A DNA stretch of 64,000 nucleotides from Escherichia coli. GTDB lineage: Bacteria; Pseudomonadota; Gammaproteobacteria; Enterobacterales; Enterobacteriaceae. The stretch is from the NCBI RefSeq assembly GCF_003334335.1, contig NZ_QOWQ01000007.1. The stretch is one strand, 5' to 3'. Below are positions 9,001 through 15,000 of this stretch, one piece after another (position 1 is the first letter of the stretch; every line of letters starts with the position of its first letter). A program made the position numbers.

Positions 9001-12000
9001 GGCAACAAAACTTTACTACGGTGCAAATTTTGCACCGTGGGAAAAAGGTCGGAACGGAACGCATCTGGTATGGCGATAAAGAAAATATCGACCTGGGAAC
9101 GGAACAAGAGTTCTGGATGGTGCTACCGAAAGCCGAAATTCCACATATCAAAGCCAAATATACCCTTGATGGTAAAGAGCTCACCGCGCCAATTAGCGCC
9201 CATCAGCGGGTAGGGGAAATTGAACTTTACGACCGTGATAAACAGGTGGCGCACTGGCCGCTGGTTACCCTGGAATCTGTCGGGGAAGGCGGCATGTTTT
9301 CCCGCCTGAGTGATTATTTCCACCATAAGGCCTGACCTTTCTTTTGCAGCAGACTGGCAGGAGTGCGAGTCTGCTCGCATAATCAACACTCATTCCTTGT
9401 GGTTTTAATATTGCAACTATACTGTATATAAAAACAGTGTTAATGGAGGCGTCATGAACTACGAGATTAAGCAGGAAGATAAACGTACCGTTGCAGGTTT
9501 CCATCTCGTTGGCCCGTGGGAGCAGACGGTAAAGAAAGGTTTTGAGCAGTTGATGATGTGGGTAGATAACAAAAATATTGTGCCGAAGGAGTGGGTTGCT
9601 GTCTATTACGACAATCCAGATGAAACACCCGCCGAAAAATTACGCTGCGACACCGTCGTGACGGTACCGAATAACTTTACGCTCCCCGAAAACAGTGAGG
9701 GCGTCATTCTGACAGAAATTTCAGGTGGTCAGTATGCGGTTGCGGTGGCTCGTGTAGTCGGTGATGATTTTGCTAAACCTTGGTATCAGTTCTTTAATAG
9801 CCTCTTGCAGGACAGTGCTTATGAAATGTTACCAAAGCCCTGCTTCGAGGTTTATTTGAACAATGGCGCGGAAGATGGGTACTGGGATATCGAAATGTAT
9901 GTTGCGGTGCAGCCAAAACATCACTAATTCATCTCAGGGCGGTGTGTTAACGCGATGACCACTCTTTTTTTTGAAAGCGAAAAGAGTAAGATGCGCCTTT
10001 CAATTTTTTCGCTCCTGCCGGGAAATTACACTGTTCCCGGTTTGTCCGTCGGATAATTCAGAGGCGCGCCTTCTGGCCGACAGATGAGTTATGAGCGCTT
10101 TTAATCTTCATTACGGAGTTTCTGCGTGCGTGCCGATAAGTCATTAAGCCCGTTTGAAATCCGGGTATACCGCCATTACCGCATTGTGCATGGTACTCGG
10201 GTCGCGCTGGCATTCCTGCTCACTTTTCTCATTATCCGCCTGTTTACTATCCCGGAAAGTACCTGGCCGCTGGTCACCATGGTGGTGATTATGGGGCCAA
10301 TCTCGTTCTGGGGTAACGTTGTCCCTCGCGCCTTCGAACGTATTGGCGGTACGGTGTTGGGTTCGATATTAGGTCTTATCGCTCTGCAACTGGAGTTAAT
10401 CTCGTTACCGCTGATGTTAGTCTGGTGCGCGGCGGCTATGTTTCTTTGCGGTTGGCTGGCGCTGGGCAAGAAACCGTATCAAGGATTATTGATTGGGGTG
10501 ACGCTGGCAATTGTTGTTGGTTCCCCGACAGGTGAAATTGATACGGCGTTATGGCGAAGCGGCGATGTGATCCTCGGCTCTTTACTGGCAATGTTGTTTA
10601 CCGGTATCTGGCCACAACGGGCGTTCATCCACTGGCGCATTCAACTGGCGAAAAGTCTGACCGAGTATAATCGGGTCTATCAATCTGCATTCTCACCGAA
10701 CTTACTCGAACGCCCACGTCTGGAAAGCCATCTACAAAAACTCCTGACCGATGCCGTGAAAATGCGTGGGCTGATTGCGCCCGCCAGCAAAGAAACCCGT
10801 ATTCCAAAATCGATATATGAAGGTATCCAGACCATTAACCGCAATCTGGTTTGTATGCTGGAGTTGCAAATCAATGCGTACTGGGCCACGCGCCCCAGCC
10901 ATTTCGTGTTATTGAACGCGCAAAAACTTCGTGATACCCAGCACATGATGCAGCAAATACTGCTGAGCCTTGTTCATGCGTTGTACGAAGGTAATCCGCA
11001 GCCGGTTTTTGCCAATACGGAAAAATTGAACGATGCTGTGGAAGAGCTGCGTCAGTTGCTCAATAACCACCATGACCTGAAGGTTGTGGAAACACCAATC
11101 TATGGTTATGTGTGGCTGAACATGGAAACGGCACATCAGCTTGAGTTGCTATCGAATCTGATTTGCCGGGCCTTGCGCAAATAATTCCTGAACTTCAGAA
11201 TCATCTTGCTGCTGCTTCGATTCAGCAAGGATAAAGGGTATGATAGTGAAAAGGGATAAAAGCATTGTCATCTGCGGCAGCTATGAGTAATGTTGGCCCT
11301 AACGAATAGCGGTTGCTTAAACGAATCCGACTCTCACATTATCAGGGGTATAAAAATGGAAACTACCAAGCCTTCATTCCAGGACGTACTGGAATTTGTT
11401 CGTCTGTTCCGTCGTAAGAACAAACTGCAACGTGAAATTCAGGACGTTGAGAAAAAGATCCGTGACAACCAGAAGCGCGTCCTGCTGTTGGACAACCTGA
11501 GCGATTACATCAAGCCGGGGATGAGCGTTGAAGCAATCCAGGGCATCATCGCCAGCATGAAAGGTGACTATGAAGATCGTGTTGACGATTACATCATCAA
11601 AAATGCCGAGCTCTCCAAAGAACGCCGTGATATCTCCAAAAAGCTGAAAGCTATGGGCGAAATGAAAAACGGCGAAGCGAAGTAATTCCTGTTTTATTCA
11701 ATGAGGGTTGCCCGGCAACCCTCATTGCTCATTGATTCTTTTCTGTGTATCAAAGTCATCATTCCCATCTGATAACCTGTCGAAATTAGCGACAGACTTC
11801 TTCTATATGCAGCAAGGCAAAAAGTTCTGCAACTCTATTGTTATTAACCGCACTGGTTACTAACACGTTGTGCGCTCCAGCTTCCCGTAACCAACATTTC
11901 ACCAAAGATATTTGTTCCATGTTGGCTAAATCTGCTTTGGTTACTACTCCAATGACCGGGCGATTCATTGACGAGGTAAAGCCTGGCGAAAAAGGTGACC

Positions 12001-15000
12001 ACGGTGCGTCCGCATTAAGCACCAGCGCGATAATGTCTGCTTCGCAGGCACTGACCAACAATGCACTGTAGAGGCTGCGGTTTTATCGGTGAGGAGTGGC
12101 AGCAAGATTTCCAGCCTCTTGATGGTGGGCCTGTGCAATCGTTATCAGATGCGTATAGCGATTATTCAGTGCTGCTATTGATAGCAGCTGAAAGCGAGAT
12201 ATCCGTACCAGAATGGCTCGCTCATTCTGAGGGAACGACGGTAATTTTGATTGCAGAACACAATGCCCGTTTGCTGACTGGTCCGGCTGGTGGGGCTGTA
12301 GCATTAATCCATTATCTGAATGAAATCTGTCATTCCAGAGAAACCGCTAGCAATGACGCATTTTGTCGGACGTTAACACGAGGAAGTCTGGCTATTCCGC
12401 AATGCCATCTTCTTTCGTAATGGATTGAGAATGCTGGATTTTTAATTATATTACGCGCAGTATTAATCGCGTAAATGTTTTGCGGTCAGCAACGGTGGGG
12501 GATCCATTGTTCTGTTCAATGAATACCATCATACAATTGAATCAGGAGTCGGTATGATGATTTTGGTGACGGGGGGCGCACGGAGCGGGAAGAGTCGCCA
12601 TGCAGAGGCGCTTATTGGGGACTCTTCACAGGTTCTGTATATCGCCACCTCACAAATCCTTGATGATGAGATGGCTGCACGGATAGAACATCATCGGCAA
12701 GGCCGCCCGGCGCACTGGCGCACGGTGGAGCGTTGGCAACATCTTGATGAATTAATTCATGCAGACATTAACCCGCATGAGGCTGTGTTGCTGGAATGCG
12801 TTACCACCATGGTGACTAATCTGTTGTTTGATTATGGCGGCGATAAAGACCCTAATGAATGGGATTATCAGGCGATGGAACAGGCGATTAATGCTGAGAT
12901 TCAGTCGTTGATTGCTGCCTGCCAACGTTGTCCCGCAAAGGTTGTATTAGTGACTAACGAAGTGGGAATGGGGATTGTGCCGGAGAGTCGTCTGGCACGA
13001 CATTTTCGTGATATTGCCGGGCGGGTAAATCAGCAGCTGGCCGCTGCGGCAAATGAAGTATGGCTGGTGGTTTCGGGTATTGGAGTAAAAATCAAATGAG
13101 TAAATTATTTTGGGCGATGCTCTCTTTTATTACGCGTCTGCCTGTACCGCGTCGCTGGTCCCAGGGACTGGATTTCGAGCATTATTCTCGCGGTATTATT
13201 ACTTTTCCTTTAATTGGATTATTGCTTGGCGCGATTAGCGGGCTGGTCTTCATGGTGCTGCAGGCATGGTGTGGCGTACCACTGGCGGCACTGTTTAGCG
13301 TACTTGTGCTGGCGCTGATGACCGGGGGATTCCACCTGGACGGCCTCGCCGATACCTGTGATGGCGTATTTTCTGCACGTAGCCGCGATCGCATGTTGGA
13401 AATCATGCGTGATAGCCGTTTAGGCACCCACGGCGGTCTGGCATTGATTTTTGTTGTACTGGCAAAGATTCTGGTATTAAGCGAGTTGGCTCTGCGTGGC
13501 GAACCGATCCTTGCATCGCTGGCGGCAGCATGTGCGGTCAGCCGCGGGACTGCCGCATTATTGATGTATCGTCATCGTTATGCCCGGGAAGAAGGGCTTG
13601 GCAATGTGTTCATTGGCAAAATTGATGGGCGACAAACCTGCGTCACACTCGGCTTAGCCGCTATTTTTGCTGCCGTATTATTGCCTGGTATGCATGGTGT
13701 GGCTGCTATGGTGGTGACGATGGTGGCGATTTTCATCCTCGGTCAGCTTCTCAAACGTACGCTGGGCGGGCAAACCGGCGATACGCTGGGAGCTGCTATA
13801 GAGCTTGGTGAACTGGTCTTCCTGCTGGCACTGCTATAAAGAGACGTGACATGCAAACACTTGCCGATTTACTGAATACGATCCCTGCCATCGATCCTGC
13901 CGCTATGTCGCGTGCACAACGGCATATCGACGGGTTACTCAAACCTGTTGGTAGCCTGGGAAGGCTGGAGGCGCTTGCCATACAACTGGCAGGAATGCCG
14001 GGGTTGAATGGCGTTCCGCATGTGGGCAAAAAAGCGGTACTGGTCATGTGTGCCGATCACGGCGTCTGGGAGGAAGGGGTCGCTATTTCCCCAAAAGAAG
14101 TGACAGCCATTCAGGCTGAAAATATGACCCGCGGAACAACCGGCGTGTATGTGCTGGCAGCACAAGCGGGCGCTAACGTCCACGTAATTGATGTTGGTAT
14201 TGATACTGCTGAGCCTATCCCCGGGCTTATCAACATGCGTGTTGCTCGAGGTAGTGGCAATATTGCTTCAGCTCCGGCAATGAGTCGCCATCAGGCTGAA
14301 AAGTTGCTTTTGGACGTCATATGTTATACGCGGGAGCTGGCAAAAAACGGTGTTACGCTGTTTGGTGTAGGTGAACTGGGGATGGCAAACACGACACCGG
14401 CCGCAGCAATAGTCAGCACAATCACTGGCCGGGATCCTGAAGAAGTGGTTGGGATTGGCGCAAACCTGCCGACAGATAAACTGGCTAATAAAATTGATGT
14501 TGTGCGCCGGGCGATTACGTTGAATCAACCAAATCCTCAGGATGGCGTTGATGTCCTGGCAAAAGTGGGTGGATTTGATTTGGTCGGAATGGCTGGCGTG
14601 ATGTTAGGCGCTGCTTCCTGCGGTTTACCCGTGTTGCTGGATGGATTTCTTTCTTATGCTGCCGCGCTCGCAGCCTGCCAGATGTCTCCTGCAATCAAAC
14701 CGTATCTCATTCCTTCTCACCTGTCGGCAGAAAAAGGGGCGCGTATTGCGCTGTCGCATTTGGGGCTGGAGCCTTATCTCAATATGGAGATGCGTTTAGG
14801 TGAGGGGAGTGGCGCAGCTCTGGCGATGCCCATCATCGAAGCTGCCTGTGCGATATATAACAACATGGGCGAACTTGCTGCCAGTAATATTGTTCTACCG
14901 GGGAATACGACTTCTGATTTGAACAGTTAAAAACGAAAAGTCTGATAAAAGCTATACTTAACGGATAGCTTTCGCGACTTAGGAAAGGGACATGATGCGT

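What the first reader, a model, noticed from the sequence alone, without database searches (positions are those of the whole stretch)
11686..12553. No prophage between cobU and yeeX; only a decayed EutP/PduV-family GTPase remnant
yeeX and cobU are separated by about 870 bp. The interval holds a frameshifted minus-strand pseudogene resembling the C-terminal two-thirds of a EutP/PduV GTPase, oriented as pdu operon genes are in Salmonella (convergent with yeeX). In K-12 I recall this interval holding the CP4-44 cryptic prophage (flu/Ag43 and a toxin-antitoxin module) and IS elements, so this looks like the unoccupied ancestral state with a pdu-operon deletion scar.
Basis: partly seen in the sequence, partly recalled or inferred. 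Interest (0 to 1): 0.5.

Follow-up and report, generated by a model that had tools for sequence, protein, structure and literature searches.

The report
Propanediol-operon deletion scar in E. coli
The 868 bases between yeeX (tmaR) and cobU are what remains after one old 17.3-kb deletion removed the propanediol-utilisation operon and its regulators from an E. coli chromosome; this is an ordinary allele of a known variable site where K-12 carries the CP4-44 island.

Summary
The observation mostly holds. yeeX/tmaR (11356-11685) and cobU (12554-13099) are 868 bp apart. No CP4-44 sequence occurs anywhere in the window. A minus-strand remnant at 11786-12082 equals residues 50-147 of the 147-aa E. 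coli PduV.

Two details are wrong. The remnant is in frame, not frameshifted. It is also not the only relic: 12080-12420 is the truncated remainder of a 145-aa ORF derived from the 5' third of cbiG, not cbiP.

Against a pdu+ E. coli (EH53) the window shows one clean 17,253-bp deletion between two GTTTT pentamers. It removed pduV codons 1-49, pduU-pduA, pduF, pocR, the cobalamin riboswitch and the first 32 codons of the cbiG-like ORF.

Among 5,426 complete E. coli genomes:
- 202 carry this junction.
- 643 carry pduC.
- About 4,580 are K-12-like, with an island between shorter remnants.

MG1655 has 13,267 bp here, including agn43, cbtA/cbeA, IS2 and IS5.

E. albertii, E. marmotae, E. whittamii and Citrobacter have pdu at this site, so pdu+ is ancestral and the scar is derived. 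Whether the scar preceded the K-12 arrangement is unresolved and probably not the case. All parts are already annotated or described. Interest is low.

The parts
11356..11685 (+). yeeX/tmaR, the intact left flank gene (109 aa)
   Evidence: NF040881 PTS_reg_TmaR at E=1.8e-56 and NF003844 (DUF496) at E=3.1e-59. RefSeq annotates tmaR in the 100%-identical strain 1506.
11699..11727 (+). 13-bp-stem hairpin after tmaR, probably its terminator, lying between the convergent tmaR and pduV remnant
   Evidence: RNA fold -22.3 kcal/mol, z = -5.2, 0 of 200 shuffles fold as well. It also appears as a 29-bp inverted self-match in BLAST.
11786..12082 (-). pduV remnant (yoeF-type pseudogene): codons 50-147 plus stop, in frame, without the P-loop or a start codon
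   Evidence: TIGR02528 at E=2.3e-26, 92.7 bits, below the 138.35 cutoff. 95% identical to residues 50-147 of intact E. coli PduV. RefSeq calls it a pseudogene, 'missing N-terminus'.
12080..12087 (.). Deletion junction: GTTTT microhomology (12080-12084) followed by the allele-specific ATC (12085-12087)
   Evidence: BLAST overlap of the two collinear blocks. Sequences of both breakpoints in three pdu+ strains and of the junction in the window plus four fetched scar genomes. None of 645 pdu+ complete genomes has ATC there.
12061..12420 (+). 119-aa chimeric ORF that crosses the junction. Its first 6-7 codons are antisense pduV. From 12080 on it is codons 33-145 of the 145-aa cbiG-derived ORF of pdu+ strains.
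   Evidence: Alignment to the EH53 ORF. NF004463 cobalt-precorrin-5A hydrolase at E=1.5e-4 for the window copy and 1.6e-19 for the intact ORF, model positions 1-125 of 351. 36% identical to residues 1-119 of a bona fide 358-aa CbiG. RefSeq labels it 'hypothetical protein' WP_001570034.1.
12421..12553 (+). 133-bp spacer upstream of cobU with one sigma-70-like site (TTGAGA-16-TATATT, 12425-12452)
   Evidence: Consensus scan found 1 site against 1.4 expected by chance, so this is not evidence on its own. The spacer is present in pdu+, scar and K-12-type genomes.
12554..13099 (+). cobU, the intact right flank gene, followed by intact cobS and cobT
   Evidence: ORF list. RefSeq annotation of strain 1506.

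Best explanation
The interval is a deletion allele of the Escherichia pdu-cob locus.

The ancestral arrangement, still present in about 12% of complete E. coli genomes and in E. albertii and E. marmotae (E. whittamii was seen for the pduV-tmaR end only), is tmaR > < pduV...pduA, pduF > pocR > cobalamin riboswitch > 145-aa cbiG-derived ORF > cobUST.

One illegitimate recombination between two GTTTT pentamers, one inside pduV and one inside the cbiG-derived ORF, removed 17,253 bp. This fused the 3' two-thirds of pduV tail-to-head with the 3' three-quarters of the cbiG-derived ORF.

The collinearity, the junction and its distribution are shown. The consequences below are inferred. Both relics are non-functional: the PduV piece lacks its start codon and P-loop. 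The strain cannot use 1,2-propanediol through this locus, and it has lost PocR and riboswitch control of cobUST. The intact cobUST genes must therefore be transcribed from a promoter in or near the remaining 470 bp.

The allele arose once and is old enough to sit on flanks that differ by up to about 6%.

The same site in K-12-like strains holds the CP4-44/iron-uptake/IS island between shorter versions of the same two relics.
For: - Collinearity with pdu+ EH53 on both sides at 98.6-98.8% identity, with a 5-bp overlap.
- EH53 annotation of the deleted segment: pduV to pduA, pduF, pocR, riboswitch, ORF.
- Remnant identities.
- No Rfam riboswitch in window 11200-13200.
- Same junction geometry in the window and six further scar genomes fetched (L003, L038-L042). 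The GTTTT-ATC junction sequence was read in the window and four of them.
- 202 of 5,426 genomes cover a 100-bp junction probe in one piece, at 92-100% identity.
- The ATC signature is absent from all 645 pdu+ genomes.
- Proteins with the chimeric N-terminus MH(C/Y)RGCGF occur in other E. coli and in Shigella dysenteriae.
- 643 genomes carry pduC.
- Outgroups carry pdu at the same site.
Against: - Flanks of scar haplotypes are interspersed with pdu+ haplotypes even within about 70 bp of the junction. This needs later short conversion tracts and would also fit recurrent deletion if an unsampled pdu+ haplotype carried ATC.
- The functional consequences for propanediol use and cobUST regulation are inferred from gene content and were not measured.
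- The promoter-like site is no more than chance would give.
Confidence: 0.9

Rival explanations
1. The scar is the direct progenitor of the K-12 arrangement: the island inserted into this 868-bp interval and then removed 280 bp around the junction.
For: - K-12-type genomes keep only window 11300-11968 and 12249-13100, both inside what the scar keeps.
- Three different pdu-less alleles (window, K-12 type, Escherichia sp. MOD1-EC7003) all end within about 120 bp of each other in pduV and about 200 bp in the cbiG-like ORF. That is easier to explain by secondary events at one primary scar.
Against: - On the right flank the K-12-type haplotype is 5-6% from all scar and pdu+ haplotypes, carries a private 9-bp deletion and falls outside their cluster.
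- The insert edges that were examined abut IS fragments: the pduV side in MG1655, the cobU side in two other genomes. IS-mediated deletion from a pdu+ state explains them equally well.
- The junction signature that could prove descent is deleted in K-12-type genomes.
Confidence: 0.3
2. The window state arose from a K-12-like genome by loss or excision of CP4-44.
For: Islands of this kind are often lost. Published tables list the site as empty in E. coli W and Crooks (PMC3032704).
Against: - The window contains 280 bp (11969-12248) absent from the K-12-type genomes examined and collinear with pdu+ genomes.
- It lacks the K-12-type 9-bp deletion and SNPs.
- No island or IS residue is present.
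Confidence: 0.02
3. The same 17-kb deletion arose more than once on different pdu+ backgrounds.
For: Two haplotype classes next to the junction occur both with and without the deletion.
Against: - A 5-bp repeat is too short to be a hotspot.
- All scar junctions read (the window and four fetched genomes) share ATC after GTTTT, whereas all 645 pdu+ genomes have GTT.
Confidence: 0.05
4. The scar is ancestral, and pdu+ strains gained the operon by insertion at this site.
For: Papers describe pdu in E. coli as patchily distributed and repeatedly 'acquired' (PMC7577506, PMC9997745).
Against: - An insertion cannot rebuild the missing 49 codons of pduV and 32 codons of the cbiG-like ORF.
- Three other Escherichia species and many Citrobacter have pdu at the same site next to tmaR.
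- Patchiness is explained by allele replacement through homologous recombination.
Confidence: 0.02

Closest known systems
yoeF pseudogene of E. coli K-12 (EutP/PduV fragment next to yeeX/tmaR)
   Same: It is the same relic at the same position and orientation, 100 bp from the tmaR stop. RefSeq names it 'yoeF: EutP/PduV family microcompartment system protein'.
   Different: K-12 keeps only the last 60 codons (183 nt). The window keeps 98 codons, and beyond them it reads straight into the cbiG-derived ORF instead of a transposase fragment.
The pdu locus of pdu+ Escherichia (LF82-type E. coli, E. albertii, E. marmotae) and of Citrobacter/Salmonella
   Same: It has the same chromosomal site between tmaR and cobUST, and the window's two relics are its terminal genes. 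The Salmonella arrangement is from my own knowledge and was not fetched here.
   Different: The window lacks 17.25 kb of it. Escherichia operons end at pduV, whereas Citrobacter has a further 2.2 kb before tmaR holding pduW, confirmed by NF009063, and a 288-aa ORF at the position where pduX is expected. Escherichia also lacks cbiA-cbiP except for a cbiG 5' fragment.
CP4-44 cryptic prophage / 'cobU island' insertion site (cobU-yeeX)
   Same: It is the same site, which the literature lists as a variable insertion point that is empty in some strains (PMC3032704; PMC3155842).
   Different: The window holds no island DNA at all.
Loss of cobalamin/propanediol genes in the E. coli lineage (Lawrence and Roth, 1995-96; recalled from memory, not read here)
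   Same: E. coli keeps only cobUST for cobinamide salvage. The window fits that picture.
   Different: The data here show in-place relics (riboswitch, cbiG fragment, pduV fragment) and a still-segregating pdu+ allele, rather than a clean absence.

Membership tests
EutP/PduV family GTPase (TIGR02528) | Sequence match to the family profile over its full length, above the curated cutoff | tested here: not met
   92.7 bits against a cutoff of 138.35, covering only model positions 49-140 of 142. The intact EH53 protein scores 186.7 bits over positions 1-141.
EutP/PduV family GTPase (TIGR02528) | N-terminal P-loop (GxxxxGK[ST]) and DxxG motif | tested here: not met
   Intact PduV has GPSQCGKT and DTPG within residues 1-49. 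The remnant starts at residue 50 and keeps only the TKAD motif.
EutP/PduV family GTPase (TIGR02528) | Orthologous position at the end of a microcompartment (pdu) operon | tested here: met
   It has the same distance from tmaR and the same strand as intact pduV in EH53, E. whittamii and E. albertii. The operon itself is absent from the window.
CP4-44 cryptic prophage / cobU-yeeX island | Presence of agn43 (flu), yeeR/S/T, cbeA/cbtA, yeeW or flanking IS elements between tmaR and cobU | tested here: not met
   The K-12 insert (L002 7313-20000) has no BLAST match anywhere in the window.
Microhomology-mediated deletion allele of the pdu-cob locus | Both flanks collinear with an intact locus, truncated genes at both ends, short repeat at the junction | tested here: met
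   17,253 bp missing, GTTTT at both breakpoints, pduV and the cbiG-like ORF both truncated.
Microhomology-mediated deletion allele of the pdu-cob locus | Single origin (identical junction in all carriers, absent from non-carriers) | tested here: met
   Junction geometry is the same in the window and six fetched scar genomes, and the junction sequence was read in the window and four of them. 202 genomes cover the junction probe. The ATC signature is absent from 645 pdu+ genomes.
CbiG, cobalt-precorrin-5A hydrolase (NF004463) | Full-length protein of about 350 aa with middle and C-terminal domains | tested here: not met
   The parent ORF is 145 aa and matches model positions 1-125 of 351 only, at 70.3 bits against a cutoff of 546. 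The window copy lacks a further 32 codons. No Pfam hit.
CbiG, cobalt-precorrin-5A hydrolase (NF004463) | Homology of the N-terminal region to bona fide CbiG | tested here: met
   36% identity over residues 1-112 against residues 1-119 of a 358-aa protein that scores 636 bits on NF004463.
   The ORF upstream of cobU matches CbiG, not CbiP. Three-frame translation of 12340-12556 showed nothing I could recognise as CbiP. No cbiP-cobU reference sequence could be fetched for a DNA alignment.

The most novel reading that the evidence does not exclude
The 144-145-aa ORF derived from the first third of cbiG may not be a dead relic in pdu+ Escherichia. It could be a retained, riboswitch-controlled small protein.

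It sits between the cobalamin riboswitch and cobU. It has kept an intact frame of the same length in E. coli, E. albertii and E. marmotae at dS of about 0.45-0.54. It shows pN/pS of 0.25-0.30 in its first 68 codons.

If so, the scar and K-12 alleles lost a function, not just junk. The three-allele polymorphism at this site (pdu+, scar, island) could then be maintained by selection.
Probability: 0.2. Interest if true: 0.35.

Novelty: already known. Interest (0 to 1): 0.12.

Why it matters
It matters little beyond bookkeeping.

- It explains two RefSeq annotations. The 'hypothetical protein' WP_001570034.1 is a chimeric reading frame made by the deletion. The partial EutP/PduV gene is the longer form of K-12 yoeF.
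- It gives a base-exact marker for typing the three allelic states of the tmaR-cobU site in E. coli.
- It shows that pdu-negative E. coli reached that state by at least two routes.
- It predicts that scar strains cannot use 1,2-propanediol through this locus and express cobUST without PocR or riboswitch control.
- It adds in-place relics to the old account of cobalamin and propanediol gene loss in the E. coli lineage.

Tried and rejected
- **cbiP remnant next to cobU.** Rejected: the ORF matches CbiG.
- **Frameshift in the pduV remnant.** Rejected: there is a single frame.
- **Riboswitch or other RNA family in the interval.** Nothing was found except a chance lncRNA hit at E=0.64.
- **Promoter and terminator scan.** Counts were at chance level.
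- **Pfam on the 145-aa ORF.** No hit.
- **PDB sequence searches with that ORF and with PduV.** Nothing useful.
- **Rare pdu+ genomes with K-12-type alleles (L048, L049) as proof that the K-12 state descends directly from a pdu+ haplotype.** Rejected as proof. The K-12-type alleles begin within 9 bp of the edge of homology (12249-12253), as expected for a conversion tract donated by a K-12-type genome.
- **Looking for that haplotype among complete genomes.** None found.
- **Literature search for a prior description of the exact junction.** None found in the papers held. Only general statements on the variable site and on patchy pdu turned up.
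Full report
**What is in the sequence.** The window is E. coli chromosome. The interval is 100% identical to strain 1506, NZ_CP059288. Gene order is dacD, sbmC, yeeA, yeeX/tmaR (11356-11685, +), then 868 bp, then cobU (12554-13099), cobS, cobT and ldtA.

A strong hairpin at 11699-11727 follows tmaR (z = -5.2).

On the minus strand, 11786-12082 is one open frame of 98 codons plus a stop. It matches the EutP/PduV profile TIGR02528 at E=2.3e-26 over model positions 49-140 of 142. It aligns without gaps to residues 50-147 of an intact 147-aa E. 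coli PduV at 95% identity. It is not frameshifted: it simply stops at a deletion junction and lacks the start codon, the P-loop (GPSQCGKT) and the DTPG motif.

**The second relic.** From 12080 onward it equals codons 33-145 of a 145-aa ORF found in pdu+ E. coli. That ORF matches the first 125 of 351 positions of the cobalt-precorrin-5A hydrolase (CbiG) model at E=1.6e-19. It is 36% identical to residues 1-119 of a bona fide 358-aa CbiG. It has no Pfam hit. So the relic next to cobU derives from cbiG, not cbiP. The first 6-7 codons of the window ORF (MHCRGC...) are antisense pduV, which makes the ORF a chimera created by the deletion. RefSeq calls it a hypothetical protein.

**The deletion.** In the pdu+ strain EH53 the order is tmaR, pduV...pduA (minus strand), pduF, pocR, a cobalamin riboswitch, the 145-aa ORF and cobUST. 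That is 18,121 bp between tmaR and cobU.
- Window 11303-12084 equals EH53 locus positions 1-782 at 98.6% identity.
- Window 12080-13100 equals positions 18031-19051 at 98.8% identity.
- The 5-bp overlap is GTTTT, which is present at both breakpoints in pdu+ strains.

One 17,253-bp deletion therefore accounts for the whole interval. No riboswitch is left in the window. cobU, cobS and cobT remain intact.

**K-12.** MG1655 has 13,267 bp between the same genes. They hold a 183-nt pduV relic (yoeF), transposase fragments, yeeW, cbtA, cbeA, yeeT/S/R, agn43, a GTPase fragment, TonB-receptor fragments split by IS2, then IS5, then a short 'cobalamin biosynthesis protein' relic. K-12 keeps only window 11300-11968 and 12249-13100. 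None of its insert matches the window.

**Population.** Counts among 5,426 complete E. coli genomes:
- 202 cover a 100-bp probe across the junction in one piece, at 92-100% identity.
- 643 carry pduC.
- About 4,580 show the K-12-type 183-nt relic.

**Single origin of the scar.**
- The window and six further scar genomes that I fetched have the same junction geometry.
- In the window and the four of them whose junction I read, the junction is GTTTT-ATC(G/T)GTGAGG. pdu+ strains read GTTTT-GTTGGTGAGG at the right breakpoint.
- None of 645 pdu+ genomes has the ATC form.
- Proteins with the chimeric N-terminus also occur in other E. coli and in Shigella dysenteriae.

These points indicate a single origin. 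Yet scar haplotypes differ from each other by up to 5.8% in the left flank. They are interspersed with pdu+ haplotypes, even within about 70 bp of the junction. The simplest reading is an old allele whose flanks have since been converted in short tracts. Recurrent deletion is unlikely but not strictly excluded.

**Direction of change.**
- E. whittamii and E. albertii have pduV about 110 bp from tmaR, as in pdu+ E. coli.
- E. albertii and E. marmotae have pocR, the 144-aa ORF and cobS next to each other. cobU is called only in E. marmotae.
- About twenty Citrobacter-group genomes have pdu at the same site, with an extra 2.2 kb before tmaR holding pduW and a further 288-aa ORF at the position expected for pduX.

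pdu+ is therefore ancestral for the genus and the scar is derived.

**Relation of the scar to the K-12 state.** This is unresolved.

For descent of K-12 from the scar: the K-12-type edges (11968 and 12249) and those of a third allele in Escherichia sp. MOD1-EC7003 (12064 and 12279) all lie just inside the scar. That would be an odd coincidence for independent events.

Against it:
- The K-12-type edges that I examined abut IS fragments: the pduV side in MG1655, the cobU side in two other genomes.
- The K-12-type right flank carries a private 9-bp deletion. It is 5-6% from all scar and pdu+ haplotypes and lies outside their cluster.
- Rare pdu+ genomes with K-12-type alleles switch haplotype within 9 bp of the homology edge. 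I read this as conversion from a K-12-type donor, so they decide nothing.

I put independent origin at roughly two to one.

**Function (inferred).** Both relics are dead. The strain lacks diol dehydratase, the microcompartment shell genes, PduF and PocR at this locus. It keeps cobinamide salvage through cobUST. Transcription of cobUST must start within the remaining 470 bp. One sigma-70-like site lies at 12425-12452, but the scan is at chance level.

**Comparison with what is known.**
- The pduV relic is K-12's yoeF.
- The cobU-yeeX site is listed as the CP4-44 insertion point and as empty in E. coli W and Crooks (PMC3032704). It is also listed as a CFT073 island site (PMC3155842).
- A yeeA-yeeX-yoeF-cobU order with the same downstream PTS genes is tabulated for STEC O182:H25 and O156:H25 (PMC5359238).
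- The patchy distribution of pdu in E. coli, and alternative gene sets at its site, are described in PMC7577506, PMC5517970 and PMC9997745.
- I found no paper that gives the junction itself, but that is a detail of a known polymorphism.

**One loose end.** The cbiG-derived ORF is intact and of constant length in three Escherichia species. Its dN/dS is 0.32-0.41, against 0.02-0.10 for its neighbours. The constraint is concentrated in codons 1-68 (pN/pS 0.25-0.30, p<0.001). It may still do something in pdu+ strains.

Noticed in passing
L005 17934-18371 (E. coli EH53); L035 4001-4435 (E. albertii); L037 4001-4435 (E. marmotae); truncated copy at window 12080-12420: A 144-145-aa ORF derived from the first third of cbiG lies between the cobalamin riboswitch and cobU in pdu+ Escherichia. 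It has kept an intact frame of constant length across three species. dN/dS is 0.32-0.41, and pN/pS is 0.25-0.30 in codons 1-68. The conserved SGHxGGA motif of CbiG reads TGPAGGA in it.
   Followed up: partly
window 16092-25350: About 9.3 kb lies between ldtA and the first tRNA-Asn (25409-25484) that K-12 lacks. It holds two PTS systems (one galactitol-type IIC), DeoR-type regulators, rpe, an SDR oxidoreductase, RpiB-like and hxlB genes, and no integrase. The same genes are tabulated next to cobUST/erfK in STEC O182:H25 and O156:H25 (PMC5359238). It may also be the galactitol locus reported close to pdu in LF82-like strains (PMC5517970), but that was not checked.
   Followed up: partly
L034 9600-10320 (Escherichia sp. 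MOD1-EC7003): A third pdu-less allele fuses pduV and the cbiG-like ORF at window-equivalent 12064 and 12279. The same locus has internal deletions in cobU and cobT, so cobinamide salvage is decaying in that lineage.
   Followed up: partly
L048 and L049, about 10100-10562: Rare pdu+ E. coli assemblies carry a 136-aa version of the ORF. In L049 the alleles switch from pdu+-type to K-12-type within 9 bp of the K-12 island edge (window 12244-12253); L048 is mosaic and turns K-12-type further downstream. The L049 pattern looks like a conversion tract that ran to the end of homology.
   Followed up: partly
L035 4436-4957 and 5702-5876 (E. albertii): No cobU gene is called between the cbiG-like ORF and cobS, and cobT is missing between cobS and ldtA. 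This suggests decay of cobU and cobT in this E. albertii.
   Followed up: no
L007-L009 versus L010-L029, downstream of pduV: Escherichia pdu operons end at pduV, about 110 bp from tmaR. Citrobacter-group genomes have a further 2.2 kb there holding pduW and a 288-aa ORF at the position expected for pduX. The second ORF got no NCBIfam hit at 1e-10.
   Followed up: partly
window 11686-12079 and its equivalents in L003, L005, L007, L038-L044: Nucleotide diversity here is unusually high for E. coli: 4-8% between strains in the pduV 3' region. One pdu+ haplotype (strain E69) is 6-8% from all the others.
   Followed up: no
window 25409-25484, 27817-27892, 29641-29716, 44027-44102: In the annotation of strain 1506, whose tmaR-cobU interval is identical to the window's and whose tRNA coordinates agree with ARAGORN on the window, no integrase-bearing island is annotated next to any of the four tRNA-Asn genes. 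Strain EH53 has a 22-kb integrative element at the first one.
   Followed up: no
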